A model generated the notes under the pieces. It searched no databases, had not been told where the DNA came from, and was given only the letters and a program-made list of their open reading frames with translations. From an uncultured Enterobacterales bacterium (GTDB lineage: Bacteria > Myxococcota_A > UBA796 > CAZKWG01): a stretch of 36,332 nucleotides of DNA. The translations under genes and the position numbers were made by a program. The stretch spans positions 1 to 36,332 of the forward strand of contig CAZKWG010000003.1 of the NCBI GenBank assembly GCA_964556105.1, read 5' to 3'. The number at the start of each line of letters is the position of its first letter. Position 1 is the first letter of the stretch. Below, piece by piece: positions 6,012-20,447 of this stretch.

Positions 6012-6017
6012 GCCCGT

Positions 6018-7520
6018 TCAGCGCCGCGCGAAGACGACGAGATCCAAGGTCTCGGTGCGGTAGCGAGCCGTCTCCTGGAAGCCCTGGCGCGCGTCCAGGA
6101 CGGTCCGCGCCACCGGCGGGATCTCGCGAAGATCGTAGTGGTCGTCCCGCAGCGCGGCGTTGATGTCGGCCGCGGAGGGCCAGCGACCGGCGGTCGGCGT
6201 GATCCAGAGCAGCCGATCCACCTGCCCGATGCGCTCGGTGGTGCCGAAGGGATCGGTGACCACGCCGCGCGCGTCGGCCCACATCCAGCGCGCCCGGACG
6301 GCCAGGATGGCGAAGCCCTCGTAGAGCGTCTCGTCCTCGCTGAACACCAGCACGTGGCGCGGCGACGGTCCGAGCGCCCGCACCGCCTCGTCCAGCGGGG
6401 ATCGCTCGTAGGACGGGGGGCTCGCCAGCGTGTGTCGCGGCGCGACCCAGCGCTCCGGCAGGAAGGGCCCGCCGGGGAGCAGGCCCAGGCCCAGGGCCAG
6501 GAAGGAGAGGGCGCCGCCGGTGATCCCCGCCCAGGCCAGGCGAGGCGCGCGGACGAGGGCCGCCAGGGGCACCAGGGCGGGGAGCGTGTAGAAGACCTGC
6601 TTCTTGGCGATCAGCGTGAAGAAGAGCACGCTGACCCCCGCCGACGCGAGCAGGATCAGCCGCTCGCGGGTGCGCGGCCCTCTCAGGCCCAGGAGCAGGG
6701 CGAGCCCGGTGATGGGGCCCGCCTGGCTGTCCAGCAGCGCCAGCGGATAGTAAGCCAGCGACCAGGGGAAGGGCGTAGCCGTGATCTGCCCGGCGCTGTC
6801 GATCTCGCCTACCGGCGCCTGGCTGAGCAGCTCGTTGGCGCTGGTGCGGATGAAGCAGGCGTACCAGTAGCCGTCCAGGAGCAGCACGGGGAGCATCGCC
6901 AGGGCGAGGTTGGTCCAGCCCCGCCGGTCCAGGCCGCGCAGCAGCGGCAGGAGCGCGGGGAGCAGGAAGAAGGCCACCGAGAGCCGATCCATCAGCAGCC
7001 CGATGGCGAGGCTGAGCCCGAAGCCGAGGGTCATCCGCCTGTCCTGCAGGCCCTCGCTCCGCACCAGAAAGGCCAGCCCGGCGGCCGTCCAGGCCAGCAC
7101 CGCAAGGTTCGGCTCGTAGCGGACCAGCGCGCCGAAGACCCCCGGGCAGCCCACCAGCAGGAGCGGCGCGAGCGGCGCGTTCAGGCTGCGCCCCAGCGCG
7201 ACCATGGCGACCAGCAGCACGCCGAGGTGCGCCAGGTTGCCGGCGACCAGCAGTCCCCAGGGCTGACCGCCTCCGAGCATCGCCGCGCCCCAGAGCAGCG
7301 GCATCGGCAGCACATAGAAGCCTGGCGGCCAGTAATTGCCCTCCACCAGGAGGCGCACCTGCCACCAGGCTCCGCGCAGGATCGCCGACCAGAGATCGTA
7401 GGCGTTCCCGATGTGCAGGTACTCGTTCTGGAAGCCGTCTGGCAGCGGGTTGTTACCGAGCCACCAATGCATCCAGGCCGCCAGAGCGAGCCCGATCAGT
7501 CCTGTCCAGCGCCAGCGCAC
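6018..7520 (-). CDS. Polytopic membrane protein, GT-C fold (ArnT/PMT-like) glycosyltransferase candidate
   Basis: One TM helix, then a loop with acidic residues (PDGFQNEYLH) and NYWPPGFY, then ~10 hydrophobic segments, KKQVFYTLP and a soluble C-terminal domain. Start placed at GTG 7520, 6 nt after TACGGT. Confidence 0.6.
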   Translation of the reverse strand: MRWRWTGLIGLALAAWMHWWLGNNPLPDGFQNEYLHIGNAYDLWSAILRGAWWQVRLLVEGNYWPPGFYVLPMPLLWGAAMLGGGQPWGLLVAGNLAHLGVLLVAMVALGRSLNAPLAPLLLVGCPGVFGALVRYEPNLAVLAWTAAGLAFLVRSEGLQDRRMTLGFGLSLAIGLLMDRLSVAFFLLPALLPLLRGLDRRGWTNLALAMLPVLLLDGYWYACFIRTSANELLSQAPVGEIDSAGQITATPFPWSLAYYPLALLDSQAGPITGLALLLGLRGPRTRERLILLASAGVSVLFFTLIAKKQVFYTLPALVPLAALVRAPRLAWAGITGGALSFLALGLGLLPGGPFLPERWVAPRHTLASPPSYERSPLDEAVRALGPSPRHVLVFSEDETLYEGFAILAVRARWMWADARGVVTDPFGTTERIGQVDRLLWITPTAGRWPSAADINAALRDDHYDLREIPPVARTVLDARQGFQETARYRTETLDLVVFARR

Positions 7521-7660
7521 CCGGCCACCGTAGTCCAAGGGGAGCACGCTGACAATTGCTTGCAACTGGGAAGCCTTGTCCAATGCTCGGGAATGCGCTC
7601 TTTTCTCTGAACATGACACCGGTGCTCGCACGGCGCCTGCGTCGGGCTATCCTGCCATGA

Positions 7661-9139
7661 ATGGAGGCCGCGATGGCGCGCGCTGCAGACGGTGTGCTCG
7701 GCGGGCTGAAGGTAGCGCTGGTCTACCCGCCCTATGGCCCGGTGAAGAACGAGCCCGGGATCAAGGCCGTCAAGGAGAACTACGGGATCTTCCCCTCGCT
7801 CTCGCTGCTCTACGTGGCCGGCATCCTCGAGAAGGCTGGCTGCGAGGTGCTCTTCATCGACGCCCACGCCGAGGAGCTCACGCTCGAGCAGACCGTGGCG
7901 CGCCTGCGCGCCTTTGGCCCGGCCTATGTCGGCTACACGCTGACCACCTACCTCTTCTTCCAGTCCATGGCCTGGATTCAGGCGATCCGCGCCGTGGTGG
8001 ACGTGCCGGTGATCGTCGGAGGCGTGCACCTCTCGATCTATCCGCGGGAGACGCTTGCCTACCCAGGGGTCGATTATGCGGTGACGGGCGAGGCCGAGCG
8101 CGCGCTGCCCGAGCTGCTCGGCGCGCTGGTGCTGGGGCGGGATCTCTCCACCGTGCGCGGCGTCGCTTACAAACGCCAGGACGGTCGCGTCGCCGTGACG
8201 CCCACCGCCGCCGACGTGGACGTGGACGCGGCGCCCTTCCCGGCGCGCCACCTCATCGACAACACCCGCTACTACTCCTTCATCAGCCAGCTCCGCAACT
8301 TCTCCTGCTTCATCACCAGCCGCGGCTGCCCCTACAAGTGCATCTTCTGCGAGCAGGGCTCCAAACCTTTTCGTGGGCGCAGCCCGGACAACGTCGTGGA
8401 CGAGCTGGAGATCTGCCGTAAGGAGCTGGGGATCCGCGAGCTCGACTTCTTCGACAGCAGCTTCACCATCAAGAAGGAGCGCGTGATCGCCATCTGCGAC
8501 GAGATCGTGCGGCGAAAGCTGGACATCGCGTGGGCCGCCCGCACGCGCGTGGACTGCATCACCGACGACGTGCTCGCCGCGATGCGCCGCGCCGGCTGCA
8601 ACCGCATCTATTACGGCATCGAGAGCGGAAACCGCGAGATCCTCGCCACCTTGAAGAAGAGCACGCGCCTCGAGATGTACCAGGACGTGGTCTCGCGCAC
8701 CCGCAAGCACGGCATCAACACGTTTGGCTACTTCATGGTCGGCAATCCCTACGAGGACGAGGCGACCGTGCGCCAGACCATCCGCCTCGCGCTGAAGCTG
8801 GACCTGGACTACGCGCAGTTCTCCAAGGTCACGCCGATGCCCGCGACCGAGCTCTACACGCTCCTGCTCCAGGAGACGGGCCGCGACTACTGGCGCGACC
8901 ACATCGTGGCCGGCTCCGACGAGCCCATCCCGCGCCCCCACTGCGACATGAGCGACGCGGAGATCCAGCGCTGGACGAAGCTGGCCTACCTGCGCTTCTA
9001 CTACCGACCCCGGTACATCCTGCGCGCGCTCCAGCGGATGAAGTCCCGCGAGGAGCTGGCGCGCAGCGTGCGCACCGCCTGGCAGATGTTGGTGGAGCGC
9101 CCGGGAGAAGCGGACAGCGGGATGGAGGTCGTGGCCTGA
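7661..9139 (+). CDS. Cobalamin-binding radical SAM protein (class B / BchE-HpnP-like)
   Basis: B12-binding-like N-terminus (PSLSLLYVAGIL, VIVGGVH, VTGEAE), SRGCPYKCIFC (CxxxCxxC), YGIESG, FMVGNP. Alternative start at ATG 7673, which has a GGAGG RBS. Confidence 0.93.
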   Translation: MEAAMARAADGVLGGLKVALVYPPYGPVKNEPGIKAVKENYGIFPSLSLLYVAGILEKAGCEVLFIDAHAEELTLEQTVARLRAFGPAYVGYTLTTYLFFQSMAWIQAIRAVVDVPVIVGGVHLSIYPRETLAYPGVDYAVTGEAERALPELLGALVLGRDLSTVRGVAYKRQDGRVAVTPTAADVDVDAAPFPARHLIDNTRYYSFISQLRNFSCFITSRGCPYKCIFCEQGSKPFRGRSPDNVVDELEICRKELGIRELDFFDSSFTIKKERVIAICDEIVRRKLDIAWAARTRVDCITDDVLAAMRRAGCNRIYYGIESGNREILATLKKSTRLEMYQDVVSRTRKHGINTFGYFMVGNPYEDEATVRQTIRLALKLDLDYAQFSKVTPMPATELYTLLLQETGRDYWRDHIVAGSDEPIPRPHCDMSDAEIQRWTKLAYLRFYYRPRYILRALQRMKSREELARSVRTAWQMLVERPGEADSGMEVVA

Positions 9140-9180
9140 GCGTCGAGCCGCGGTTCTGCCGATGGCGTTAGACTGCGTGG

Positions 9181-10872
9181 ATGCTGGTCCTCGGAATCGC
9201 AGACAACCATGACAGCGGCGCCGCCGTCACCGTGGACAACGGGCTGGTCTCGGCGGTGAACCAGGAGCGCGTCGATCGCGTGAAGGGCTCGGCGGCCTTT
9301 CCCTGGGGCGCCATCGACTCGGCGCTGGAGGTCGCCGGCGCGAGCGAGCGCGACGTGGACCGCATCGTCGTCGGCACCTCGTTCACGCCCTCCGCGTTTC
9401 TGCGCGCCTTCCCCTCCCAGCACAGCGCCGCGCGCGAAGGCGGGCAGTTCTCGCCGCTCCTGCACGCCTACATCCTCTACCAGTCGGCCCTGCGCGCGAC
9501 CGGCCTGCACACGCTGGATGTAGACCTCTCCCGCCAGATCCTCCGTCGTCGCCTGAAGGCGCGCCCCTTCCAGACGCAGCAGATCGAGCTGGTCGATCAC
9601 CACCGCGCGCATGCCGAGGCCGCCTTCCGCACCCAGGCGGACGCCGACGCGCTGGTCTTCACCGTGGACGCCATGGGCGACGGCACCACCGTCACGGTCT
9701 CGCAGGCCAGCCACGGCCAGCTGGATCGCATCTACAGGCAGTCGGGCCTCTCCGCGATCAACGCCTTCTTTGGTCGCGTCACCGAGATGCTCGGGTTCAC
9801 GGCCAACCGCCATGAGGGCAAGGTGATGGGGCTCGCCGCCCGCGCCGAGCCGCCCGAGGAGCTGCTGGCCCACATCCGCGAGCGCCTGCGCTTCCGTGAG
9901 CCCGGCTTCACGCTCAGCCCGATCTTCCGCGCCGAGGCGCGCACCGATCCGTTCTGGCGCGCGTTCGAGCGCTGGAGCCGGGAGGAGATCGCCAGCGCCG
10001 CCCAGCGGGTCCTCGAGGAGACGGTCGTCGCGTTCGTCTCCCACTGGATTCATCGCACGGGCAAACGCTCCGTCGCGCTGGCCGGCGGCATCTTCGCCAA
10101 CGTCAAGTTGAACCTGCGCATCGCTCAGCTCGAGGAGGTCGAGCGCGTCTGGGTGCTGCCGCACATGGGCGACGGCGGGCTGGCGGTGGGCGGGCTCTAC
10201 GCCGCGCTCGAGGCGCCGCCCAGGCAGATCCCCGACGTGTTCTGGGGGCCGTCGTTCACCGAGAAGCAGTGCTACAAGGCGCTCTCGCTCGGTGACCTGC
10301 CGCGCTACAAGCCCAAGGACATGGTGGGCGAGGTCGCCGCGCTGCTGGCCCGCGGCAAGATCGTCGCCCGCTTCGACGGGCGCATGGAGTGGGGGCCGCG
10401 CTCGCTGGGGAACCGCTCCATCCTGCTGCGGCCGGACGACCCGGCGCTCACCGAGCGGCTCAACGGCCTGCTGCGCCGCAACGACTTCATGCCCTTCGCG
10501 CCGCTGGTGCGCGACGAGGACGCGCCGCTCTATTTCCGCGAGGTCGACCAGGCGCCGCATGCCGCCCGCTTCATGACGATCTGCTTCCAGGCGACGCCCC
10601 TCTTCGCCGAGCTGGCGCCCGCCGCGGTCCATGTGGACGGCACCGCCCGGCCCCAGGTGCTTCGCCAGAGCGACGCGCCCACCCTGCACGCGCTGCTCGG
10701 TGAGGTCGGCGAGAAGACCGGTCGGCCCATCCTCATCAACACCTCGTTCAACGTGCACGAGGAGCCGATCGTCTGCACACCGGGCGACGCCATCCGCACC
10801 TGGAAGGCCGCGGAGCTCGACGCGCTCTGGCTCGGCCCCTTCCTGGTCAACCGCGAGCGGATGAGCGCCTAA
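9181..10872 (+). CDS. Carbamoyltransferase, NodU/CmcH/TobZ family
   Basis: LGIADNHDSGAA, QERVDRVK, DHHRAHA, VDAMGD, HEGKVMGLA, LAGGIFANVKLN, MEWGPRSLGNRSIL, FMPFAP, HVDGTARPQ, INTSFNVHEEPIV. Confidence 0.95.
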   Translation: MLVLGIADNHDSGAAVTVDNGLVSAVNQERVDRVKGSAAFPWGAIDSALEVAGASERDVDRIVVGTSFTPSAFLRAFPSQHSAAREGGQFSPLLHAYILYQSALRATGLHTLDVDLSRQILRRRLKARPFQTQQIELVDHHRAHAEAAFRTQADADALVFTVDAMGDGTTVTVSQASHGQLDRIYRQSGLSAINAFFGRVTEMLGFTANRHEGKVMGLAARAEPPEELLAHIRERLRFREPGFTLSPIFRAEARTDPFWRAFERWSREEIASAAQRVLEETVVAFVSHWIHRTGKRSVALAGGIFANVKLNLRIAQLEEVERVWVLPHMGDGGLAVGGLYAALEAPPRQIPDVFWGPSFTEKQCYKALSLGDLPRYKPKDMVGEVAALLARGKIVARFDGRMEWGPRSLGNRSILLRPDDPALTERLNGLLRRNDFMPFAPLVRDEDAPLYFREVDQAPHAARFMTICFQATPLFAELAPAAVHVDGTARPQVLRQSDAPTLHALLGEVGEKTGRPILINTSFNVHEEPIVCTPGDAIRTWKAAELDALWLGPFLVNRERMSA

Positions 10873-11615
10873 CGCGCGGCGACGCCGTCCGCGGGGAGCT
10901 GATCGCCGGAGACCGCCCACAGGCTGCCGAAGGCGCGCCACAGCTCGCCGGTGAGCCGCGGGCCGCCGTCCTGCTTGCCCGAGCGCAGCCCGTCGTTGAG
11001 CACGACCCCGTCCTCGCGCCGCCCGACGTGCGGGTCGCGCAGGTTCATGCGGATGCGCACGACGCCGTTGCTGCCTCGGTGGACGAGGATGATGGTCCCG
11101 TCCGCCTCGACCTTCTCCACCACCGCGACGTGGCTCAGCTCGTCGTCGCGGCGGCCGTTGCCGTTCCGGTCGTAGGTGTCGTCGAAGAAGGCGATATCGC
11201 CGGGCTGGGGCAGCTTCTTGTGGTGAAGCACGCCCAGCTCGCGAGAGAGGGCGAACATGTCGGCGCTGGACCCGCTCAAGGTCAGGCCCGCCCGCGCGTA
11301 GGAGGCCTCGACCAGGCCCGAGCAGTCGGATCGGTAGGTGCGGCCGTCCACCACCAGCTTCGGCTTGCCGACCAGCCCGCCCGCGCCCTTCGCTACCGCG
11401 TGCCCGACGGTGCTCTCCTGGCGCGCGCGCTTGCGCTCCGCGCGGGAGCGGGGGGCCTCGGTCTTCTCGGGCGTCTCCCGACGGACCAGGCCCGCCTCGG
11501 CCTCCTCGTAGCCGACGTCCTCTCCCAGCGAGCCGAGCGGACCCGGCACGGGCATGCCGCCGCGATGGGCACAGCCGATGGAGAGCAGCAGGGCAGAGAG
11601 CGCGAGGGCACGCAT
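10869..11615 (-). CDS. NlpC/P60-CHAP family cysteine peptidase lipoprotein (peptidoglycan hydrolase candidate)
   Basis: Lipobox-like LLLSIGC, DCSGLV (catalytic Cys), PQPGDIAFF, SHVAVV (His) and ILVH. Confidence 0.85.
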   Translation of the reverse strand: MRALALSALLLSIGCAHRGGMPVPGPLGSLGEDVGYEEAEAGLVRRETPEKTEAPRSRAERKRARQESTVGHAVAKGAGGLVGKPKLVVDGRTYRSDCSGLVEASYARAGLTLSGSSADMFALSRELGVLHHKKLPQPGDIAFFDDTYDRNGNGRRDDELSHVAVVEKVEADGTIILVHRGSNGVVRIRMNLRDPHVGRREDGVVLNDGLRSGKQDGGPRLTGELWRAFGSLWAVSGDQLPADGVAAR

Positions 11616-11751
11616 GGCGGGACTCTATCAGACTTGACGTGGCAAGGGCAAGCCTGTGATGAAGTCTAGGAAATGCCGGGCGTGCAAACTGGCCTGCCGC
11701 CTGCTATCGTGAGGTGGCTGCTTTTCGACCTGTCCCCCCGGGAGTCGGCTG

Positions 11752-13334: not shown

Positions 13335-15725
13335 ATGATGTCAGGTTCAACTCCCGGTTTTTATGGCAGGCTCGCCGCGACGGTCATGGATCGGCCATGG
13401 GCGGCCATCCTCATCCTGTTCCTGGTCTCCTGCGTCTCGCTTGGGCTGATCACCCGCCTGGACATCGATCCGGACATGGTCCGCCTGCTGCCCCAGGACG
13501 ATCCGGCCACCCTCGCCATCCGCGACATCCAGCGGGAGGAGGGCTCCACCCAGCTCGTGACCATCACGATGCGGGGCGAGGATCCGGCGAAGCTCGACGC
13601 GTTCATGCTCGCGCTCCAGGCCCGGATCGACGCGATGCCGGAGGTCGCGTTCACCCTCTACAAGGTGGATCCGGAGCTGGCCTGGCGGGTCGGTCTGCTG
13701 AACATCCCGCCCGATGATCTCGCGCGGCTCCGCGACCGGCTGAAGGGCGCGCTGGCGATGGGGCCCGCCATCCAGAACCCCTTCGTCGCCGGCCAGTGGC
13801 TGGACCTCGGCTCGCTGACCGAGCGCCTCAAGGGCAAGGACACGGCGAGCGCCTTCGAGGCGCCTCCGGGGACCGCCCGCCTCATCGTCCGGCCGACGGG
13901 CTCGGCGACGGACATGGGCTTCGCCAGCCCCTTCATGGAGCAGGTCGACCAGATCCTGGTCGAGATGGATCCGGCCTCTCAGGGGGTCACGCTGGCCTGG
14001 CTGGGCGGCCCCTATCACCACAACGTCGAGGACATGCGGGGGATCTCGCGGGATCTCACCCGAACGAACGGCGCCAGCCTCGTGCTGGTGCTGGTCCTGA
14101 TCGCGCTGGCCTTCCGCAACGTTCGCGCGGTCATCCTCATCTTCGCCCCCATCGTGCTGGGCAACCTCTGGGCGCTGGGCTTCGCCGGGGCGACGGTCAA
14201 GACGCTCACCAGCTTCACCTCCTTCTTCAGCGCCGTGCTGGTCGGGCTGGGGATCGAGTTCTCCATCCACCTCTACTCGCGCTACCGCGAGGAGCAGCAC
14301 CGGCTCGGCGACGTGCGCGCCGCCGTCATCCGCACCTGGGACATCGTCGGCCCGCCCAGCCTGACCTCGGCGCTGGCCTCGGCGGGCGGCTTCCTGGCCC
14401 TCTGGGCGGCGCACTTCCAAGGCTTCCAGCAGCTCGGGACGCTGCTCGCGGGCGGAAACCTGCTCTGCCTCACGGCGGTGCTCGTGCTGCTGCCCATCCT
14501 TATCCTCTGGGTGGACACCCGCAAGGCGCCGCGCCAGCTCATGCAGAGCCTCGGGCACTACCGGGCGCAGAAGCTGCCGCCCCGGCCCGCCACCTATCGG
14601 CTCGCGCCGCTCATTCTGGCCCTGGCTGCGCTGTTCTCGGTGGCCGCCGGCTTCATGCTCCCGCGCATCCCCTTTCAGTTCGACGTCTCCGAGCTGCGCC
14701 GCGAGGGCCTGGCCTACAGCGACATGACCGAGGAGGAGCGCAAGCTGGCCCACGACAGCTACTCGCCGCTCGTGGTGAGCTACCCCGACGAGGCGAGCAT
14801 GAGCGCCGACCACGCGCGCCTCACGGCCATGTTGGAGCAGGGCCAGCTCCCCGAGATCGCCCGCGTGCTCAGCCTGCGCTCCGTGCTGCCGGCCGACCAG
14901 GACGCCCGCGTCGCCGTGCTCGGCGAGATCGCGGCGCTGGCGCGCGACCCGAACGCCATCTACCTGCCGCCGCAGGCCCGCGCGAACCTGGAGCACATCG
15001 CCAGCACCCCCATCGCCCCGATGACGCGCGAAGACCTGCCCCCCAGCCTGCGGGGGCTGCTGGGCGCCAATGGCTCCCACCACTGGATCCTGATGATCCC
15101 GAGCGGGAACATGTGGGATCTGCGCGAGACCGCGCGCTTGAAGGAGGCGATGGACCGCGTGCTCCCCGATCGGCCGGTCGCCGGTCAGTACATCGCCCTG
15201 GCGGTGCTCTATGGGCTGGTGCGCGATGACGCCCCGCGCGTGGCCGTCGTCGCCCTGCTCATCGTGTTCGCGACGACCGCGCTCGACCTGCGCAACGTCC
15301 GGCGGGCGCTCGGCGCGATCTTCGCGTTGATCGCCGGCATGTGCTGGGCGGGGGCGGGGATGGCCCTGTTCTCGATCAAGCTCTCGATGATCAACTTCGT
15401 CGGCATCCCCATCCTGATGGGCATCGCCGTGGACGCGATCATTCACCTTCAGCATCGATTGTCGGAGGAGGGGCCGGGGCGGATCGGCAAGGCGCTCATC
15501 ACGACGGGCTGGGCGGTGGCGCTGGGCGCGCTCACCAACGCGTTCTCCTTCTCCAGCCTCGTCTTCGCGTCTACGGTCGGCGTGCGCTCGCTGGGCTACC
15601 TCGTCGTCCTGGGGCTGGCGCTGGTGACCCTGGCGGCCTTCCTCTTCGTCCCGCTGGGGTGGATGACCACCTGGTCCTTCGCCGGCGCGGGCCCGCGGAG
15701 AGACGACGGCGAGGGGACGTCGTAG
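13335..15725 (+). CDS. MMPL family RND transporter (HpnN/YdfJ-like)
   Basis: Two repeats of TM, large periplasmic loop, 5 TM. TM4-like GLGIEFSIHLYSRYREE and TM10-like GIAVDAIIHLQHR, plus FQGFQQLG and GVRSLG. Confidence 0.9.
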   Translation: MMSGSTPGFYGRLAATVMDRPWAAILILFLVSCVSLGLITRLDIDPDMVRLLPQDDPATLAIRDIQREEGSTQLVTITMRGEDPAKLDAFMLALQARIDAMPEVAFTLYKVDPELAWRVGLLNIPPDDLARLRDRLKGALAMGPAIQNPFVAGQWLDLGSLTERLKGKDTASAFEAPPGTARLIVRPTGSATDMGFASPFMEQVDQILVEMDPASQGVTLAWLGGPYHHNVEDMRGISRDLTRTNGASLVLVLVLIALAFRNVRAVILIFAPIVLGNLWALGFAGATVKTLTSFTSFFSAVLVGLGIEFSIHLYSRYREEQHRLGDVRAAVIRTWDIVGPPSLTSALASAGGFLALWAAHFQGFQQLGTLLAGGNLLCLTAVLVLLPILILWVDTRKAPRQLMQSLGHYRAQKLPPRPATYRLAPLILALAALFSVAAGFMLPRIPFQFDVSELRREGLAYSDMTEEERKLAHDSYSPLVVSYPDEASMSADHARLTAMLEQGQLPEIARVLSLRSVLPADQDARVAVLGEIAALARDPNAIYLPPQARANLEHIASTPIAPMTREDLPPSLRGLLGANGSHHWILMIPSGNMWDLRETARLKEAMDRVLPDRPVAGQYIALAVLYGLVRDDAPRVAVVALLIVFATTALDLRNVRRALGAIFALIAGMCWAGAGMALFSIKLSMINFVGIPILMGIAVDAIIHLQHRLSEEGPGRIGKALITTGWAVALGALTNAFSFSSLVFASTVGVRSLGYLVVLGLALVTLAAFLFVPLGWMTTWSFAGAGPRRDDGEGTS

Positions 15726-15729
15726 GGGC

Positions 15730-16488
15730 TCAGGTCCGAAGGATCTTGCGCACCAGCGTGGCGGTGAAGTCGTGGCCCTCCAGGAAGGCCAGGCGGATGT
15801 CCGGCTCGGCGCGCGCGACGCGGATCTGCGTGATGGTCCCCGTCTCCACGCCGTCGGCGACGACCCGCGCCGGGCGCAGGTCGTGGTCGAGCACGTCGAT
15901 CACGATCTGCGTGCTCTCGGGGAGGCTGAAGGGCGAGAGGCGCGGCGTGTGCGGGCAGATGGGCGTGACGTGCAGGGCCCGCACCAGGGGGTGGCAGGGC
16001 ACGCCGCTGGCCGAGAAGCTGTAGGCGGTGCTGCCCAGGCCGGTCGCGACGATGAGGCCGTCGCAGGCCATCTGATCGACCACCTGCACCCCGTCGATGC
16101 TCAGGCGCAGGCGGGCGGTGTGTCCGCTGGAGCGCTCCACGTAGACGTCGTTGACCGCCAGCGCGCGGCGCAGCGCTCCCTCCACCGTGCGCGCCTCGAC
16201 GGCGAGGCGGGGGAAGGTGTGCGGCTGGTAGCGCCCCTCCGAGAGCGCGCGGGCCGCGCGGTCCAGGCCGTTCGTCTCGCCGACGTCGTTCAGCAGGAAG
16301 CCGAGATGGCCGGCGTTCAAGCCAAGATAGACGAAGTCCGGGCCATGATCGCGGATGCAGCGGAGCATCCAGCCGTCGCCGCCCACCACCAGGCACAGAT
16401 CGGCGGGCAGGGCGTCCAGATCCAGCCGGCCCCGGAGCGCCGCGAGCAGCCGTCCAGCCTGAGGGTTACGCGGGTCCAGGCAGATCAT
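15730..16488 (-). CDS. nadK: NAD(+) kinase
   Basis: VGGDGWML, NAGHLGFLLN, AVNDV, DGLIVATGLGSTAYSFSA, LHVTPICP. Start trimmed to ATG 16488. Confidence 0.93.
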   Translation of the reverse strand: MICLDPRNPQAGRLLAALRGRLDLDALPADLCLVVGGDGWMLRCIRDHGPDFVYLGLNAGHLGFLLNDVGETNGLDRAARALSEGRYQPHTFPRLAVEARTVEGALRRALAVNDVYVERSSGHTARLRLSIDGVQVVDQMACDGLIVATGLGSTAYSFSASGVPCHPLVRALHVTPICPHTPRLSPFSLPESTQIVIDVLDHDLRPARVVADGVETGTITQIRVARAEPDIRLAFLEGHDFTATLVRKILRT

Positions 16489-16515
16489 GCGAGCCCCATC
16501 ACCAGAGGTGCAGCC

Positions 16516-17373
16516 ATGCTCCTCATCAAGAGCCATGGCCTCGGAAATGACTACCTGATCCTGGACCGCTGGGCACCCTCGCGGCCCGCACCCTGGCCCG
16601 ATTCCCGGCTCGAGGCCGCTCAGGCTCGCCTGCTCTGCGATCGCCACCGCGGCGTCGGCGGCGACGGCGTCCTGGAGCCGGTGACCTCGAGCTGCGCGAC
16701 CGCGGGCCTGCGCATCTGGAACCCGGATGGCTCGCTGGCCGAGAAGAGCGGCAACGGCCTGCGCATCTTCGCCCGCTGGCTGGTCGAGCGCCGCGGCGCG
16801 CCCCCCTCGCTGACGGTCGAGGTCGCCTCCGGCGTCGTCACCTGCGAGGTGAGCCCCGACGAGATCCGCGTCGCCATGGGGCGCGCCACCTTCGCCCCCG
16901 AGCAGATCCCCGCCCGCGAGCCGCTGCGCCTCACCCCCGTCGAGGTCGGCGGCCACACGCTCCTGCTCACGGCCGTCGGCATGGGCAACCCCCACTGCGT
17001 GGTCTTCGTCGAGGAGGCGCTCGATCAACTCCCATGGCGAACCTGGGGGGCGCTCCTGGAGCGCCACGCGCTCTTTCCCAATCGGACGAACGTCCAGTTT
17101 GCGCGCGTTCTGGACCACGCGCGCGTCGAGGTGCGGGTCTGGGAGCGCGGCGCCGGCGAGACGGCGAGCTCCGGATCCTCGGCCTGCGCCGTGGCTGCGG
17201 CGGCCTGCGCCCTCGGGCGGACGGGCGCGCGCGTGGCCGTTCACATGCCGGGCGGGACCCTGGACGTACACGTAGGGCCCGGCGCGGAGATTACCCTCAT
17301 TGGACCGGCGGAGGAGGTGTGCGAAATCAAGCTCTCTCCAGCGTTCGTAAAAAAACTCATGGCGGAGAGGTAG
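16516..17373 (+). CDS. dapF: Diaminopimelate epimerase homologue, Ser/Ser active-site variant
   Basis: KSHGLGNDY, CDRHRGVGGDG, IWNPDGSLAEKSGNGLR, GMGNPHCV, FPNRTNVQF, VWERGAGETASSGSSACA, MPGGTL. Start trimmed to ATG 16516 (GAGG RBS). Confidence 0.88.
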   Translation: MLLIKSHGLGNDYLILDRWAPSRPAPWPDSRLEAAQARLLCDRHRGVGGDGVLEPVTSSCATAGLRIWNPDGSLAEKSGNGLRIFARWLVERRGAPPSLTVEVASGVVTCEVSPDEIRVAMGRATFAPEQIPAREPLRLTPVEVGGHTLLLTAVGMGNPHCVVFVEEALDQLPWRTWGALLERHALFPNRTNVQFARVLDHARVEVRVWERGAGETASSGSSACAVAAAACALGRTGARVAVHMPGGTLDVHVGPGAEITLIGPAEEVCEIKLSPAFVKKLMAER

Positions 17374-17377
17374 GTGT

Positions 17378-17409
17378 TTGACAAGCGCCCTTGAACCGGG
17401 CACCATGAT
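17378..17409 (+). promoter_or_regulatory. Candidate sigma-70 promoter for the radical SAM pair
   Basis: Perfect TTGACA at 17378-17383 with weak -10 candidates (CACCAT at 17 nt, CATGAT at 20 nt). AGGAGG RBS before GTG 17446. Confidence 0.45.
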
Positions 17410-17445
17410 AGGGATTACGACAAGCTCGAGAGGAGGGATCTACCC

Positions 17446-18849
17446 GTGCGCGTCATGCTCATCCGGCCGCCCGCCAGGCACACGGTGGAGAGTGAGGTTC
17501 CTGAGGCTGTCGAAGCCGAGAACCTCTCTTATCCGCCGCTCGCCCTCCTCTCCATCGCCCAGTTCCTCCTCTCGCAGTCGAGCCACGAGGTCACCCTCCT
17601 CGACGCTCAGCTCGACAATCTCGATTACCCCGAGATGGAGGAGCGGATTCGCGCCTGGGGTCCTGACGTCGTCGGGATCACCTGCTTCACCGTCCAGCTC
17701 GTGGACGTGCACAACACGATCGGCGCCTGCAAGAAGGCCGGCGTTCAGCGCATCGTGCTGGGCGGGCCGCACATCTCGGACTTCCCGCGCGAGAGCGTGG
17801 GGCTCCCCAACGTGGACGCGGTCGTCAAGGGCGAGGGCCAGCAGCCCATGCTCGACCTCGTCAACTGCTGGGCGGCGGGCAAGGAGGCGCGCGGCATCCC
17901 CGGCGTCATGGCCCACCCCGACGATCCCATCCCCGAGCAGGACGTCTACTTCTCGAACAACCTCGACGACTACCCCATCATCGACCGCACCCTGGTCGAC
18001 TACAAGCGCTACTACGACGTGCTCGGGGCCGGCGGCATCTTCACGACGATGATCACCAGCCGCGGCTGCCCCTACCGCTGCACCTTCTGCAACACGCCGC
18101 GCCACCGCTACCGGGTGATGTCGCCGAGCCGCGCCTGCGACGAGATCGAGGCCTGCATCAAGCTGGGCATCAAAGAGATCTACTTCGTAGACGACACCTT
18201 CAACATCACGAACAAGCGCGTCATCGAGCTCTGCGACGAGATCCTCCGCCGCGGGCTGCAGTTCAGCTGGACCGTGCGCTTCCGCGTCAAGGGCGTCGAT
18301 CGCGAGCTGCTCGAGAAGATGAAGGCCGCCGGCTGCAGCCGCATCCAGTTCGGGGTCGAGCAGGGCACCGAAGAGGGCCTCCTGCGCCTGAAGAAGGACG
18401 TCACCTCGAAGGAGATCGAGCACGCCTTCAAGCTCTGCCGCGAGATCGGCATCCGCACGGTGGCCTACTTCATGATCGGCACGCCCACGGAGCGCACGCG
18501 CCGGGACGTGATCGACACCATCGACTACAGCATCCGGCTGAACCCCGACTTCGTCATGTACAACATCCTCACGCCGTTCCCGGGCACGACCCTCTACGAC
18601 GAGGGGATGCGGGACGGGGTGCTGGACATCAACCCCTGGTTGAAGTTCATGCGCGAGCCGTCGGAGGCCTTCAAGGCCCAGGTCTGGGATGAGTACTTCA
18701 CCCGCGAAGAGCTGCGCGACCTGCTGAACATGGCCTACAAGCGGTTCTACTGGCGTCCGGCCTTCGTTCTGCGAAACCTGGCTCAGATCCGCAATCCCCA
18801 GGATCTGATGCGCAAGGCGACCGCGGGCCTGCGGCTGCTCACCGAATAG
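17446..18849 (+). CDS. Cobalamin-binding radical SAM protein (class B-like)
   Basis: YPPLALLSIA, VLGGPH, VKGEGQ, TSRGCPYRCTFC, YFVDDTF, FGVEQG, YFMIGTP, LTPFPGT, AYKRFYWRP. Apparent paralogue of 7661-9139. Confidence 0.94.
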   Translation: MRVMLIRPPARHTVESEVPEAVEAENLSYPPLALLSIAQFLLSQSSHEVTLLDAQLDNLDYPEMEERIRAWGPDVVGITCFTVQLVDVHNTIGACKKAGVQRIVLGGPHISDFPRESVGLPNVDAVVKGEGQQPMLDLVNCWAAGKEARGIPGVMAHPDDPIPEQDVYFSNNLDDYPIIDRTLVDYKRYYDVLGAGGIFTTMITSRGCPYRCTFCNTPRHRYRVMSPSRACDEIEACIKLGIKEIYFVDDTFNITNKRVIELCDEILRRGLQFSWTVRFRVKGVDRELLEKMKAAGCSRIQFGVEQGTEEGLLRLKKDVTSKEIEHAFKLCREIGIRTVAYFMIGTPTERTRRDVIDTIDYSIRLNPDFVMYNILTPFPGTTLYDEGMRDGVLDINPWLKFMREPSEAFKAQVWDEYFTREELRDLLNMAYKRFYWRPAFVLRNLAQIRNPQDLMRKATAGLRLLTE

Positions 18850-18897
18850 CGTATCCTGTCTCTTCTTCATCCTTACCGCCCTCACATGGAGCGATCC

Positions 18898-20442
18898 ATG
18901 AAGCTCACCTCCGCGCTCATCGTCGGCCTTTACGGCATCGAAAACAGCGGTGTTCGTCACGTCACGGCCATGCTCCGTGACCGTGGCGGCTACCGTGCCG
19001 ACCTGATGTTCTTCAAAGACTGGCGTCACAACCGGGTCGAGTGGCCCACCGACGACGAGTACGCGCTCCTCGTGGACCACATCGAGAAGGAGGGCTACGA
19101 CGTCGTAGGTCTGGGCTTCGGCTCGCCCTACTACCGGGTCGCCATCGAGGTCACGCGCCGCATCAAGGAGCGCCTTGGCGACAAGGTCTTGGTGGTCTGG
19201 GGCGGTCTGCACACCACCCTGGTGCCCGAGCACTGCATCGCCTACGCCGATGTCTGCTGCGTGGGCGAGGGCGAGTACCCGCTGCTCGACCTCATGAACC
19301 GCCTCGAGGAGGGCCGCGAGCTCGACGACACGCCGAGCATGTGGGTCCGCCGCAAGGACGGGACGATCGCCAAGAACCCGGTCGGCGAGCTGATGACCAG
19401 CCTCGACGAGCTGCCTTTCCGCCACTACGGCGGCGAGGACGTGTTCATGGTCGATCACGGCATGATGACCCGCGGCGACCCGATGCTGAAGCACCGGGAG
19501 TACCGCATCTTCGCCAGCCGTGGCTGCCCCTACAAGTGCGCCTACTGCTACAACAGCTCGCTGCGCGCCATCTACCCGGAGGGCAAGGGCAACTACCACC
19601 GCCGCCGCAGCGTGGACTCGGTCATGGCCGAGCTTCGCCAGGCCCGCGAGAAGATCCCCGGGATCCGCTGGATCAAGTTCGACGATGACACCTTCGTCTT
19701 CCCCAAGTGGTGGCTGAAGGAGTTCTGCGAGAAGTACAAGGCGGAGTTTGGCGACATCCCCTTCGACTGCATGATGACGCCCGACGTCGCGCGCATCGAG
19801 AACCTGCGCCTGCTCAAGGACGCCGGCCTTCGCGGCGTGCAGCTGGGCATCGAGGCGGGCTCGGACCGCGAGCAGAAGGAGGTCTACGACCGCACCTCCA
19901 CGGTCGAGCAGATCCTGGCCTTCGACGAGATGAACCTCGAGCTTCAGCTCGACACGAAGTACGACGTCATCATCGACAATCCGCTGGCCTGGACCTCGGA
20001 CAAGGACGCGCTCTTCCACCTCCTCCTGGACCTGAAGAGCCCGTACAAGATCTACCTCTACTCGCTGACGCTCTACCCGAAGAGCTCGGTGACCGAGAAG
20101 ATGATCGCCGCGGGCTACGCCACGGAGAGCGACATCGAGGGCTTCGCGACCAAGTCCTTCCGCCAGTTCCGCGTCAGCGTGGACTGGCCGCGCTCCAACG
20201 AGGACAAGTACTACCTCGCCCTCTACATGATGGTGAACAAGCCCTTCCTCCCGCGCGATCTGGTGAAGTACTTCCACGACTCGCCGTTCTGGAAGGAGCA
20301 CCCGGATCTGCTGCTGGAGATCGCCCAGGCCACGAACCTCGTGCGCATGGCCGGCATCGCCTCCCAGATGGCCTACCGCGGTGAGCTCTCCGTCCAGAAG
20401 GTCCGTGAGTACGGCAACATCCGGAAGATGATTAACCAGTAG
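18898..20442 (+). CDS. Cobalamin-binding radical SAM protein, distinct subfamily
   Basis: VWGGLHTT, CVGEGE, ASRGCPYKCAYC, KFDDDTF, LGIEAGS, and YDVIIDNP where others have FIxGxP. Start placed at ATG 18898 (GGAG 6 nt upstream); 18886 is possible. Confidence 0.92.
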   Translation: MKLTSALIVGLYGIENSGVRHVTAMLRDRGGYRADLMFFKDWRHNRVEWPTDDEYALLVDHIEKEGYDVVGLGFGSPYYRVAIEVTRRIKERLGDKVLVVWGGLHTTLVPEHCIAYADVCCVGEGEYPLLDLMNRLEEGRELDDTPSMWVRRKDGTIAKNPVGELMTSLDELPFRHYGGEDVFMVDHGMMTRGDPMLKHREYRIFASRGCPYKCAYCYNSSLRAIYPEGKGNYHRRRSVDSVMAELRQAREKIPGIRWIKFDDDTFVFPKWWLKEFCEKYKAEFGDIPFDCMMTPDVARIENLRLLKDAGLRGVQLGIEAGSDREQKEVYDRTSTVEQILAFDEMNLELQLDTKYDVIIDNPLAWTSDKDALFHLLLDLKSPYKIYLYSLTLYPKSSVTEKMIAAGYATESDIEGFATKSFRQFRVSVDWPRSNEDKYYLALYMMVNKPFLPRDLVKYFHDSPFWKEHPDLLLEIAQATNLVRMAGIASQMAYRGELSVQKVREYGNIRKMINQ

Positions 20443-20447
20443 TAGGG

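What the first reader, a model, noticed from the sequence alone, without database searches (positions are those of the whole stretch)
6018..20442. Three B12-radical SAM enzymes with carbamoyltransferase, GT-C and MMPL exporter: candidate undescribed envelope-lipid or glycoconjugate tailoring pathway
Seen: three cobalamin-binding radical SAM genes within 13 kb, a NodU/CmcH carbamoyltransferase next to the first, a divergent GT-C-like membrane protein and an MMPL transporter. No PKS, NRPS, ACP, squalene-hopene cyclase or RiPP precursor is present. Known: B12-radical SAM enzymes methylate unactivated carbons (HpnP, HpnR) or form or remodel rings (BchE, OxsB, GrsA/B); MMPL/HpnN proteins move lipids; GT-C enzymes use lipid-linked sugars. 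Inference: these genes may jointly build and export a methylated or cyclised, carbamoylated, glycosylated envelope lipid or glycan. I do not recognise it as a named pathway. Caveat: nadK and dapF are interleaved and several genes appear to have their own promoters.
Basis: partly seen in the sequence, partly recalled or inferred. Interest (0 to 1): 0.72.

Follow-up and report, generated by a model that had tools for sequence, protein, structure and literature searches.

The report
Conserved glycan-tailoring trio, plus unlinked neighbours

Summary
All the genes listed are present at the stated coordinates: three B12-binding radical SAM genes (7661-9139, 17446-18849, 18886-20442), a TobZ/NodU-type carbamoyltransferase (CT, 9181-10872), a polytopic membrane protein whose model has a GT-C fold (6018-7631, minus strand), and an MMPL/RND transporter (13335-15725). 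nadK and dapF lie between them.

The 14-kb stretch is not a conserved unit. I examined 41 loci whose CT is at least 48% identical, mostly from Myxococcota MAGs. Only the near-identical relative L001 carries rSAM2, rSAM3 and the MMPL gene beside the CT (1 of 19 loci with enough flank).

What recurs is a smaller module:
- rSAM1 occurs in 19 of the 41 loci.
- The divergently transcribed GT-C gene occurs in 13 of the 41.
- A convergent CHAP lipoprotein gene occurs in 20 of the 41.

More distant CT relatives sit in glycan clusters. Of 41 long CT homologues, 27 are fused to glycosyltransferase domains.

None of the three radical SAM proteins reaches the curated cut-off of HpnJ, HpnR, BchE, the ladderane family or any other named family.

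Best reading: an uncharacterised module that tailors an envelope glycoconjugate, next to unrelated neighbours. The rSAM2-rSAM3 pair remains unexplained, because no neighbourhood scan anchored on it was possible.

The parts
6018..7631 (-). Core module. Polytopic membrane protein with a GT-C fold. The likely start is near 7520, giving about 500 aa. It is transcribed divergently from rSAM1.
   Evidence: It has no Pfam or NCBIfam hit. The L040 orthologue gives a sub-threshold PMT_2 hit (23.9 bits, cut-off 26.1). The model has pLDDT 83. The top 35 Foldseek PDB hits are all GT-C enzymes. E33 and D42 are invariant in the stretch after the first helix. An orthologue is present in 13 of 41 related loci.
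7661..9139 (+). Core module. rSAM1, a B12-binding (class B) radical SAM enzyme of 492 aa.
   Evidence: It has B12-binding and Radical_SAM domains and a CxxxCxxC motif at residue 223. Its best NCBIfam hits are BchE (192 bits, cut-off 481) and HpnJ (181 bits, cut-off 578). Orthologues of 59-92% identity are present in 19 of 41 related loci.
9181..10872 (+). Core module. A TobZ/NodU-type O-carbamoyltransferase of 563 aa, starting 41 bp downstream of rSAM1.
   Evidence: Carbam_trans_N and Carbam_trans_C match over the full length. PDB relatives are 7xb6 (E 2e-61), TobZ (2e-57), GdmN and the novobiocin carbamoyltransferase. Of 41 long homologues, 27 are fused to glycosyltransferase domains.
10869..11615 (-). 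Frequent neighbour of the module. A CHAP/NlpC-P60 lipoprotein, convergent with the CT and overlapping it by 4 bp.
   Evidence: It has a CHAP domain. The N-terminus ends in LSIGC, which I read as a lipobox. An orthologue is present in 20 of 41 related loci, and in 18 of the 31 with at least 900 bp of downstream flank.
11752..13230 (+). Neighbour, not co-conserved with the module. A secreted protein, possibly an outer-membrane beta-barrel, upstream of the MMPL gene.
   Evidence: The N-terminus looks like a signal peptide. It has no Pfam hit. The ESM Atlas feature search gives OMP_b-brl clusters at 0.97, which is a lead only. Apart from the window it is found only in L001.
13335..15725 (+). Neighbour, not co-conserved with the module. 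An MMPL/RND-type transporter of 796 aa.
   Evidence: The MMPL domain scores 101 bits. HpnN TIGR03480 scores 225 bits (cut-off 752), HAE3 182 (352) and BstA 167 (1400). It lies near the CT only in L001, which is 1 of 24 loci with at least 5 kb downstream.
15730..16488 (-). Housekeeping neighbour: NAD kinase.
   Evidence: It has an NAD_kinase_C domain and hits NAD kinase models. The start was placed by inspection.
16516..17373 (+). Housekeeping neighbour: diaminopimelate epimerase DapF. It lies 72 bp upstream of rSAM2 on the same strand.
   Evidence: TIGR00652 scores 211 bits, above its cut-off of 115. The start was placed by inspection.
17446..18849 (+). Separate unit. rSAM2, a class B radical SAM enzyme of 467 aa, very strongly conserved.
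   Evidence: Domains are and the CxxxCxxC motif at residue 208. It is 32% identical to rSAM1. All 120 listed 90%-identity clusters are 76-94% identical to it and 453-484 aa long, most of them exactly 467 aa. It is not near the CT outside L001.
18886..20442 (+). Separate unit. rSAM3, a divergent class B radical SAM enzyme of 518 aa, 36 bp downstream of rSAM2.
   Evidence: Domains are and the CxxxCxxC motif at residue 214. Its best NCBIfam hit is HpnJ at 100 bits (cut-off 578). 33 full-length clusters are at least 66% identical, followed by a drop to 54% and lower. 1679 representatives score E<=1e-30. Of 26 relatives scanned, 25 have no NCBIfam hit at E<=1e-40 and the other one (P0159) hits only below cut-off.

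Best explanation
The region is a juxtaposition of units, not one pathway.

**Unit A (6018-10872, often with the CHAP gene to 11615)** is a conserved module of uncultured Myxococcota-type bacteria. Two cytoplasmic enzymes modify a sugar. The B12-radical SAM enzyme rSAM1 most plausibly adds a methyl group to an unactivated carbon, though another radical rearrangement is possible. The TobZ-like carbamoyltransferase makes carbamoyl-adenylate and O-carbamoylates a hydroxyl. The divergently transcribed GT-C membrane enzyme then transfers a sugar from a polyprenyl-phosphate carrier onto an acceptor on the periplasmic face, such as LPS, another glycan, peptidoglycan or a protein.

**Shown:**
- the domain content of the proteins;
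- the GT-C fold;
- co-conservation of the three genes;
- the glycan context of relatives.

**Inferred:**
- the chemistry (methylation, O-carbamoylation);
- the order of steps;
- the donor and the acceptor.

**The other units** are neighbours with no demonstrated link to unit A:
- Unit B is the OMP-like gene plus the MMPL transporter.
- Unit C is nadK and dapF.
- Unit D is rSAM2 and rSAM3. It is a pair of class B radical SAM enzymes of unknown substrate. Their distant relatives also sit in glycan clusters.
For: **1. The whole stretch is not conserved.**
- Among 41 loci with a CT at least 48% identical, rSAM2 and rSAM3 occur only in L001, which is 1 of 19 loci with at least 9.5 kb of downstream flank.
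- The MMPL gene and its upstream partner also occur only in L001, which is 1 of 24 loci with at least 5 kb downstream.
- Synteny between the window and L001 ends right after rSAM3, and starts right after a tRNA-Sec gene.

**2. The core is conserved.**
- rSAM1 orthologues (59-92% identical) occur in 19 of the 41 loci, and in 18 of the 35 with at least 1.6 kb of upstream flank.
- The GT-C orthologue occurs in 13 of the 41 loci, and in 13 of the 19 that have rSAM1. In 12 of those 13 it is the minus-strand gene next to rSAM1. In L023 a methyltransferase gene lies between them.
- Flanking genes differ between subclades. They include UvrD with TPP enzymes and transketolase; a response regulator with an HD protein; and NadA with a kinase.
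- The link survives insertions of 2-6.7 kb (L011, L016, L036) and a rearrangement (L023).
- In the CT tree, rSAM1-linked rows occur in all three subclades of a 36-row clade with 100% support.

**3. The context points to glycans.**
- Loci of the same clade that lack rSAM1 (L003, L004, L007, L008) carry four other genes beside the CT. These are a GT4 gene, an SGNH/GDSL-like gene, a 430-aa membrane protein, and a 600-aa protein with 8 predicted TM segments. A GT2 gene lies in L004, L006 and L007.
- That 600-aa protein is a weak homologue of the window's GT-C (E 6e-4 to 4e-6) and of a PMT_2 protein in L063 (E 9e-11).
- Seven of the 39 loci with a CT below 48% identity have a B12-radical SAM gene within 10 kb: L052, L054, L056, L058, L063, L072 and L073. 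L058's scored no B12-binding domain in Pfam.
- Pfam was run on six of them (not L072). Four of the six carry glycosyltransferase genes: L052, L054, L063 and L073.
- L063 adds three PMT_2 (GT-C) genes. L054, L058 and L063 add a DegT aminotransferase.
- L073 adds heptose-type genes (SIS, GHMP kinase, nucleotidyltransferase, epimerase) and a polysaccharide deacetylase.
- L056 showed none of these.
- 27 of 41 long CT homologues are fused to GT2 or GT1/4 domains, and 2 to radical SAM domains.

**4. The membrane protein has a GT-C fold**.

**5. Relatives of rSAM2 and rSAM3 also sit in glycan clusters.**
- Their best plasmid relatives (34% and 31% identical) lie in one glycan cluster of Solidesulfovibrio carbinolicus pDCAR1.
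- A 26%-identical relative of rSAM2 lies in a GT2/GalE/SIS/GHMP/HAD cluster on a Lawsonia plasmid.
Against: - No enzyme that would load a sugar onto a polyprenyl phosphate (a GT2 like ArnC), no flippase and no nucleotide-sugar genes lie in the window next to unit A. The module cannot be a complete pathway on its own.
- The GT-C orthologue is missing from 5 rSAM1-CT loci that have upstream flank: L002, L009, L010, L012 and L014. rSAM1 is missing from about half of the CT loci. The trio is therefore not obligatory.
- Part of the synteny may be inheritance among relatives rather than function. CT-CHAP-NadA is also kept in several loci, and NadA is surely unrelated.
- The window's membrane protein does not reach any Pfam GT-C model.
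- The glycan contexts come from relatives only 26-41% identical.
- The absence of rSAM2, rSAM3 and the MMPL gene near the CT elsewhere does not exclude a functional link across the genome.
- Gene calls in the loci came from my own ORF heuristic, not from a gene finder.
Confidence: 0.5

Rival explanations
1. One reading: all three B12-radical SAM enzymes, the CT, the GT-C and the MMPL transporter form one pathway. It would build and export a methylated or cyclised, carbamoylated, glycosylated envelope lipid or glycan.
For: - All the genes lie within 14.4 kb, and the arrangement is kept in L001.
- The best sub-threshold family hits include lipid-related models: HpnJ, the ladderane B12 radical SAM family, HpnN and BstA.
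- Distant relatives of rSAM2 and rSAM3 occur in glycan clusters, as do relatives of the CT, so a shared theme is possible.
Against: - It is conserved only in the nearest relative (CT 89% identical). That is 1 of 19 loci with enough flank for rSAM2 and rSAM3, and 1 of 24 for the MMPL gene.
- Housekeeping genes nadK and dapF and a convergent CHAP gene break the stretch into at least four transcription units.
- All the lipid-family models are missed by wide margins.
- The listed orthologue clusters differ: 120 of 120 listed for rSAM2 are at least 76% identical, against 33 full-length clusters at least 66% identical for rSAM3. Neither list could be compared with the range of rSAM1.
Confidence: 0.1
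2. rSAM1 and the CT make or modify a soluble small molecule, such as an aminoglycoside-like or other carbamoylated natural product. The GT-C gene is an unrelated neighbour.
For: - The closest solved relatives of the CT are natural-product enzymes: TobZ, GdmN and the novobiocin carbamoyltransferase.
- The best solved relative of rSAM1 is AprD4 from apramycin biosynthesis.
- The GT-C gene is absent from 5 rSAM1-CT loci that have upstream flank.
Against: - No other biosynthetic genes accompany the pair in the window or in the 19 loci.
- rSAM1 is 59-92% identical across genomes whose CTs are only about 50-60% identical. This fits a core cell function better than a secondary metabolite.
- 27 of 41 long CT homologues are fused to glycosyltransferases.
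- GT-C genes recur beside CTs in several phyla.
Confidence: 0.12
3. Unit A tailors a lipid rather than a glycan. For example, it would methylate, ring-modify and carbamoylate a polyol or amino-polyol lipid head group, as in carbamoylated bacteriohopanepolyols.
For: - The sub-threshold hits of rSAM1 include HpnJ (181 bits) and the ladderane lipid radical SAM family (146 bits).
- An RND/MMPL gene lies 2.5 kb away.
- That carbamoylated hopanepolyols exist is recalled, not from any call.
Against: - No squalene-hopene cyclase or other lipid gene is in the window.
- The HpnJ cut-off is 578 bits and the ladderane cut-off 360 bits, and neither is met.
- The MMPL gene is not co-conserved.
- Neighbours and fusion partners of CT relatives are glycosyltransferases.
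Confidence: 0.08
4. The recurrence of GT-C, rSAM1, CT and CHAP is only inherited gene order among related genomes, and the genes have no common function.
For: - All 19 rSAM1-CT loci fall in one CT clade.
- The clearly unrelated NadA gene is also kept next to CHAP in several loci.
- CHAP is convergent with the CT and so cannot be co-transcribed with it.
Against: - Other flanking genes turn over completely between subclades, while rSAM1 and the CT stay together.
- They stay within 7 kb after insertions and a rearrangement.
- CT relatives in other phyla are again near B12-radical SAM and GT-C genes.
- Two long CT homologues are fused to radical SAM domains.
Confidence: 0.15

Closest known systems
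ArnT-type lipid A / envelope modification (GT-C enzymes that use undecaprenyl-phosphate sugars)
   Same: The window's membrane protein has the GT-C fold. ArnT structures 5ezm and 5f15 are hits 2 and 3 (E about 2e-5, TM 0.54-0.56). Cytoplasmic sugar-tailoring enzymes are encoded next to it.
   Different: No gene like ArnA, ArnB, ArnC or ArnD lies nearby. The sequence does not reach the PMT_2 model. The tailoring enzymes are a B12-radical SAM enzyme and a carbamoyltransferase, which are not part of the Arn pathway (pathway content recalled).
TobZ / NodU / CmcH O-carbamoyltransferases
   Same: Both Pfam domains match over the full length. TobZ matches at E 2e-57 and 7xb6 at 2e-61. The same two-step chemistry through carbamoyl-adenylate is expected; that chemistry is recalled from the TobZ literature.
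   Different: It is not NodU: NF041651 scores 108 bits against a cut-off of 1000. The context is not an antibiotic or Nod-factor cluster. It is a conserved pair with a B12-radical SAM gene in Myxococcota-type MAGs.
Class B radical SAM sugar-modifying enzymes of aminoglycoside pathways (AprD4; GenK-type C-methyltransferases)
   Same: rSAM1, rSAM2 and rSAM3 all have the B12-binding plus radical SAM architecture. AprD4 (6fd2) is the best solved relative of all three. Relatives sit beside sugar-pathway genes.
   Different: Identity is low: the AprD4 family model scores 111, 110 and 47 bits against a cut-off of 500. There is no aminoglycoside cluster. The role of GenK is recalled and was not tested here.
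HpnJ / HpnR / BchE / ladderane B12 radical SAM families and the HpnN transporter
   Same: They share the domain architecture, and these are among the highest-scoring named models.
   Different: Every curated cut-off is missed by a factor of 2.5 or more. No hopanoid, chlorophyll or ladderane genes are in the window.

Membership tests
Class B (cobalamin-dependent) radical SAM enzymes | N-terminal B12-binding domain (PF02310) followed by a radical SAM core (PF04055) | tested here: met
   Both domains score above the Pfam cut-offs in all three proteins.
Class B (cobalamin-dependent) radical SAM enzymes | CxxxCxxC motif for the [4Fe-4S] cluster | tested here: met
   There is one motif in each protein, at residues 223, 208 and 214.
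Class B (cobalamin-dependent) radical SAM enzymes | Actual cobalamin binding and the type of reaction (methylation or other) | not testable with these tools
   This needs purified protein. AprD4, the best solved relative, is named a diol-dehydratase family by NCBIfam, so methylation is not guaranteed.
HpnJ, HpnR, BchE, ladderane rSAM, PhpK, BzaD, ApyD and other named B12-rSAM families (NCBIfam) | Score at or above the curated cut-off of the family model | tested here: not met
   The best scores are rSAM1 BchE 192/481, rSAM2 BchE 175/481 and rSAM3 HpnJ 100/578. All other families score lower relative to their cut-offs.
GT-C glycosyltransferases | Multi-helix membrane domain with the GT-C fold | tested here: met
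   The model has pLDDT 83 and pTM 0.83. The top 35 PDB matches are all GT-C enzymes, with best E 4.7e-6 and TM 0.56.
GT-C glycosyltransferases | Match to a GT-C sequence family such as PMT_2 (GT39/GT83-like) | tested here: not met
   The window protein has no hit. The L040 orthologue scores 23.9 bits against a cut-off of 26.1.
GT-C glycosyltransferases | Conserved acidic residue(s) in the first extracytoplasmic loop | tested here: inconclusive
   E33 and D42 are invariant in 13 sequences, just after the first helix. That this stretch faces the periplasm and is catalytic is inferred.
TobZ/NodU/CmcH carbamoyltransferases | Kae1-like N-terminal domain and YrdC-like C-terminal domain (Carbam_trans_N and Carbam_trans_C) | tested here: met
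   The scores are 108 and 187 bits over nearly the full profiles. TobZ matches at E 2e-57. The names Kae1-like and YrdC-like are recalled.
NodU (nodulation carbamoyltransferase, NF041651) | Curated equivalog cut-off | tested here: not met
   108.5 bits against a cut-off of 1000.
HpnN / BstA / HAE3 lipid transporters | Curated cut-off of the family model | tested here: not met
   TIGR03480 scores 225/752, NF052374 107/1100, BstA 167/1400 and HAE3 182/352. Only the general MMPL domain is met.
A conserved gene cluster spanning 6018-20442 | Co-occurrence of the member genes in relatives beyond the same species or genus | tested here: not met
   rSAM2 and rSAM3 occur in 1 of 19 loci with enough flank. 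The MMPL gene and its partner occur in 1 of 24. In both cases the one locus is L001.
A conserved GT-C / rSAM1 / CT module | Co-occurrence and kept relative position across divergent relatives | tested here: met
   rSAM1 occurs in 19 of 41 loci and the GT-C in 13 of those 19. The linked loci are spread over all three subclades of the CT clade, and the other flanking genes differ.

The most novel reading that the evidence does not exclude
The GT-C / rSAM1 / carbamoyltransferase trio is a previously undescribed envelope-decoration system of uncultured Myxococcota-type bacteria. A sugar would be C-methylated, or otherwise rearranged, by a cobalamin radical SAM enzyme and then O-carbamoylated. It would be carried on a polyprenyl phosphate and installed on a periplasmic acceptor by a new GT-C subfamily. 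This would make radical SAM chemistry a routine part of building surface glycans. The same pairing of these CTs with B12-radical SAM genes recurs beside glycan genes in Hydrogenedentota, Omnitrophota, PVC, CPR and Thermodesulfobacteriota loci.
Probability: 0.3. Interest if true: 0.65.

Novelty: new variant of a known kind. Interest (0 to 1): 0.45.

Why it matters
Class B radical SAM enzymes are known mainly from antibiotics, cofactors, RiPPs, hopanoids and chlorophyll. I searched one 2026 review of these enzymes by term only (PMC12931638). It has no occurrence of glycan, polysaccharide, lipid, hopanoid or carbamoyl.

If the conserved trio really decorates an envelope glycoconjugate, it would add a new job for this enzyme class. 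It would also define a new GT-C subfamily that current sequence models miss. And it would give a handle on the surface chemistry of a large group of uncultured Myxococcota-type bacteria.

The negative result also matters. Three look-alike radical SAM genes close together are not evidence of one pathway here, and the lipid and MMPL part of the hypothesis should be dropped unless new evidence appears.

Tried and rejected
- **Promoter and terminator scan** of 5000-23200. It found 0 promoter-like sites and 6 terminator-like sites against 4.0 expected. This says nothing useful about operon structure.
- **Rfam**. No cobalamin riboswitch or other regulatory RNA lies in the window; the only hit is a tRNA-Sec.
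- **Contig-length matching.** I tried to infer whether rSAM2 and rSAM3 orthologues share contigs by comparing the longest-contig lengths. No lengths matched. The test is weak, because each list shows only the top 120 clusters and one contig per cluster, so it is uninformative.
- **NCBIfam on 26 relatives of rSAM3** (26 of the 150 listed, chosen from the top of the list plus the long forms). 25 had no hit at E<=1e-40. The other (P0159) hit 7 models, all below cut-off.
- **Pfam on 22 relatives of rSAM3**. It found only B12-binding, Radical_SAM and Radical_SAM_N2 domains. It also found three fusions: P0159 (two B12-rSAM halves), P0207 (rSAM plus B12-rSAM) and P0180 (B12-rSAM plus a class I methyltransferase). 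P0159 joins a BchE-like half, 27% identical to rSAM2, to an rSAM3-like half at 33%. That is a single, distant fusion and too weak to claim that rSAM2 and rSAM3 work together.
- **ESM Atlas** on the unknown 600-aa protein that sits upstream of the CT in L008. The best score was 0.82, which is chance level, so it was dropped.
- **Streptomyces clavuligerus pSCL4 hit** of rSAM2. The record carries no annotation there, so it gave no context.
- **Literature searches**. They combined radical SAM or B12 terms with carbamoyltransferase, polysaccharide, exopolysaccharide, glycosyltransferase, myxobacteria or Myxococcota. They returned one unrelated paper (seen in the listing only) or nothing. These searches cover only the held open-access library.
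- **G+C dip at 18-20 kb** (64%), considered as a sign of gene transfer and rejected. Third-codon-position G+C of rSAM2 and rSAM3 is 0.94, like the rest of the window, so the dip comes from amino-acid composition.

Full report
**What is there.**
The window has about 70% G+C. Six-frame ORF listing with Pfam and NCBIfam scans gives this map of the flagged stretch:

| Coordinates | Strand | Gene |
|---|---|---|
| 6018-7631 | - | polytopic membrane protein, no family hit |
| 7661-9139 | + | rSAM1 |
| 9181-10872 | + | carbamoyltransferase (CT) |
| 10869-11615 | - | CHAP lipoprotein |
| 11752-13230 | + | secreted protein, no family hit |
| 13335-15725 | + | MMPL/RND transporter |
| 15730-16488 | - | NAD kinase |
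| 16516-17373 | + | DapF |
| 17446-18849 | + | rSAM2 |
| 18886-20442 | + | rSAM3 |

All three radical SAM proteins have a B12-binding domain, a radical SAM core and one CxxxCxxC motif. Gaps are 41 bp between rSAM1 and the CT, 36 bp between rSAM2 and rSAM3, and 72 bp between dapF and rSAM2. The CT and the CHAP gene converge and overlap by 4 bp.

**The GT-C claim.**
The membrane protein has no sequence-family hit, and one orthologue (L040) gives only a sub-threshold PMT_2 match. I aligned 13 orthologues and predicted the structure (pLDDT 83, pTM 0.83). The top 35 Foldseek matches in the PDB are all GT-C glycosyltransferases: ALG12, ArnT, STT3, ALG9, AftD, DPY19, AftA, PglB, AglB, Pmt4 and AftB. 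Invariant E33 and D42 lie just after the first helix, where GT-C enzymes keep their catalytic acidic residues. The location of those residues in GT-C enzymes is recalled; the invariance is. The protein is therefore a GT-C fold member that current sequence models miss.

**Family placement of the radical SAM enzymes, the CT and the transporter.**
- No NCBIfam model is reached. rSAM1 scores 192 bits on BchE (cut-off 481) and 181 on HpnJ (cut-off 578). rSAM2 scores 175 on BchE. rSAM3 scores 100 on HpnJ. HpnR, the ladderane family, PhpK, BzaD, ApyD and AprD4 are all lower relative to their cut-offs.
- The best solved relatives are AprD4, the MCR glutamine C-methyltransferase, TsrM, TokK and OxsB. 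The glutamine C-methyltransferase is PDB 9CCB, identified from passages of PMC12931638.
- rSAM1 and rSAM2 are 32% identical. rSAM3 is more distant, at 29% and 83 bits to rSAM1.
- The CT is a full-length TobZ/NodU-type enzyme but not NodU itself.
- The transporter has the MMPL domain but misses the HpnN, BstA and HAE3 cut-offs.

**The neighbourhood test.**
I spent the single genome scan on the CT, because 10-kb flanks around it cover the whole finding. It returned 80 loci. In 41 of them the CT is at least 48% identical, and these form one clade with 100% support in a CT tree. The tree used 66 of the 80 loci plus the window. Four loci were dropped for an in-frame stop in the matched stretch (L007, L046, L051, L071) and ten for under 90% coverage.

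Most of the 41 are labelled Myxococcota or Deltaproteobacteria MAGs. Several third-party labels (Enterobacterales, Rickettsiales) conflict with this placement.

I searched every window protein against all loci with tblastn and counted orthologues. The thresholds were rSAM1 at least 55% identity, GT-C at least 35%, CHAP, MMPL and the secreted protein at least 30%, and rSAM2 and rSAM3 at least 45%, all with coverage of at least 50%.

| Gene | Loci with an orthologue | Among loci with enough flank |
|---|---|---|
| rSAM1 | 19 of 41 | 18 of 35 (at least 1.6 kb upstream) |
| GT-C | 13 of 41 | 13 of 33 (at least 3.5 kb upstream) |
| CHAP | 20 of 41 | 18 of 31 (at least 900 bp downstream) |
| rSAM2, rSAM3 | 1 of 41 (L001) | 1 of 19 (at least 9.5 kb downstream) |
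| MMPL and the secreted protein | 1 of 41 (L001) | 1 of 24 (at least 5 kb downstream) |
| nadK, dapF | 1 of 41 (L001) | not counted |

L001 has a CT 89% identical to the window's, so it is a very close relative. Its synteny with the window runs only from the gene after a tRNA-Sec to the end of rSAM3.

**What is conserved.**
- rSAM1 and the CT stay together across all three subclades of the CT clade, while the other flanking genes turn over completely.
- They remain within 7 kb after insertions (L011, L016, L036) and a rearrangement (L023).
- The GT-C gene is the divergent neighbour of rSAM1 in 12 of the 13 loci that have it. In L023 a class I methyltransferase gene lies between them.
- The GT-C gene is absent from L002, L009, L010, L012 and L014.
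- rSAM1 is more conserved (59-92% identity) than the CT (49-89%) or the GT-C (37-80%) in the same loci.
- Some of this synteny may be simple inheritance. CHAP is followed by the unrelated NadA gene in several loci.

**Functional context.**
- Clade members without rSAM1 (L003, L004, L007, L008) carry three things upstream of the CT. These are a GT4 glycosyltransferase, an SGNH/GDSL-like protein and two unknown membrane proteins. A GT2 gene lies in L004, L006 and L007.
- One of those membrane proteins (600 aa, 8 predicted TM segments) is a weak homologue of the window's GT-C and of a PMT_2 protein in L063.
- Of the 39 loci with a more distant CT, seven again have a B12-radical SAM gene within 10 kb: L052, L054, L056, L058, L063, L072 and L073. 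Pfam was run on six of them (not L072).
- Four of the six carry GT2 or GT4 genes (L052, L054, L063, L073). L063 has three PMT_2 genes. L054, L058 and L063 have a DegT aminotransferase.
- L054, L056, L058 and L063 have SPASM radical SAM genes. L073 has heptose-type genes and a polysaccharide deacetylase.
- A search for long CT homologues found 41. Of these, 27 are fused to glycosyltransferase domains (23 GT2, 7 GT1/4), 2 to radical SAM domains, 3 to a PF13480 domain, 1 to a sulfotransferase and 1 to a deacetylase.

Everything points to sugars as the substrate of this CT family.

**Units B, C and D.**
- The secreted protein upstream of the MMPL gene resembles outer-membrane beta-barrel proteins in a language-model search. 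This is a lead only.
- nadK and dapF are ordinary housekeeping genes.
- rSAM2 is strikingly conserved. All 120 listed clusters are 76-94% identical to it and 453-484 aa long, most of them exactly 467 aa.
- rSAM3 has 33 full-length clusters at 66% identity or more, then drops to 54% and lower. It belongs to a large unnamed family, with 1679 representatives at E<=1e-30.
- Their best annotated relatives lie in one glycan cluster of a Solidesulfovibrio plasmid, at 34% and 31% identity. That cluster has nonulosonic-acid genes, SIS and PfkB genes, a glycosyltransferase and transketolase genes.
- A 26%-identical relative of rSAM2 lies in a GT2/GalE/SIS/GHMP/HAD cluster on a Lawsonia plasmid.
- A glycan role is thus the best guess for unit D too, but it rests on distant relatives. 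I could not run a scan anchored on these genes.

**Verdict.**
The most likely picture (confidence about 0.5) has two parts. The first is a conserved, uncharacterised GT-C / B12-radical SAM / carbamoyltransferase module that tailors an envelope glycoconjugate. The second is a set of unlinked neighbours: an OMP-like gene with an RND transporter, two housekeeping genes, and a second pair of radical SAM genes of unknown substrate.

The chemistry, the donor and the acceptor are inferred. I found no description of such a module in four literature searches or in a term search of a 2026 review. These cover only the held open-access library, and supplements were not consulted.

Noticed in passing
window 2189-2288 (-), and 1-2130: A tRNA-Sec gene (Rfam 68 bits; ARAGORN anticodon TCA). 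The stretch on one side of it (1-2130) has lower G+C (64%) and holds a Schlafen/AlbA_2 gene and an unknown ORF. Synteny with L001 begins on the other side of it. This looks like a variable island next to a tRNA gene.
   Followed up: partly
window 17446-18849: rSAM2 is unusually conserved. All 120 listed 90%-identity clusters are 76-94% identical to it and 453-484 aa long, most of them exactly 467 aa. That is far tighter than the CT (about 50-60% identical) in the related MAGs, and it suggests a strongly constrained, perhaps core, function that is still unnamed.
   Followed up: partly
protein P0159: A 961-aa metagenome protein fuses a BchE/HpnJ-like B12-radical SAM half (27% identical to rSAM2) to an rSAM3-like half (33%). 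P0180 fuses an rSAM3-like enzyme to a class I methyltransferase, and P0207 fuses two radical SAM cores.
   Followed up: partly
window 20582-22927 (-): A cytochrome P450 (273 bits; its nearest named models, albaflavenone monooxygenase and pentalenene oxygenase, are below cut-off) is followed by a 303-aa protein with no family hit. Both converge on rSAM3. No match to the 303-aa protein was found in L001, where a different ORF follows rSAM3, but only about 420 bp of L001 lie beyond rSAM3, so the P450 could not be checked.
   Followed up: no
window 23082-27164 (+): A 1360-aa hybrid sensor kinase with Reg_prop and Y_Y_Y repeats, HisKA/HATPase, receiver and AraC HTH domains. I recall this architecture as typical of Bacteroidota polysaccharide-sensing regulators.
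   Followed up: no
L003, L004, L006, L007, L008: In these relatives the CT has no rSAM1. It sits instead with an SGNH/GDSL-like protein, two unknown membrane proteins, a GT4 gene, a GT2 gene (in L004, L006 and L007), and (in L003, L008 and also L018) an unknown soluble protein of about 600 aa directly upstream. That protein gave only chance-level Atlas hits.
   Followed up: partly
L001, L002, L004, L009, L014, L016, L034, L040, L046, L050 and others: Several third-party MAG records are labelled 'uncultured Enterobacterales' or 'Rickettsiales'. Their CT genes nevertheless nest among Myxococcota-labelled MAGs, and L001's proteins are 67-95% identical to those of this window, which has about 70% G+C. 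The labels look unreliable.
   Followed up: no
window 18000-20000: G+C dips to 64% over rSAM2 and rSAM3, but third-position G+C is 0.94 there, as elsewhere. The dip reflects amino-acid composition, not foreign origin.
   Followed up: yes
L020, L024, L025, L028, L037, L052 (Hydrogenedentota-type loci): Here the CT follows a non-B12 radical SAM gene of about 340-350 aa, an LPG_synthase_TM-type membrane protein, or both. This is a different but again radical-SAM-linked arrangement.
   Followed up: no
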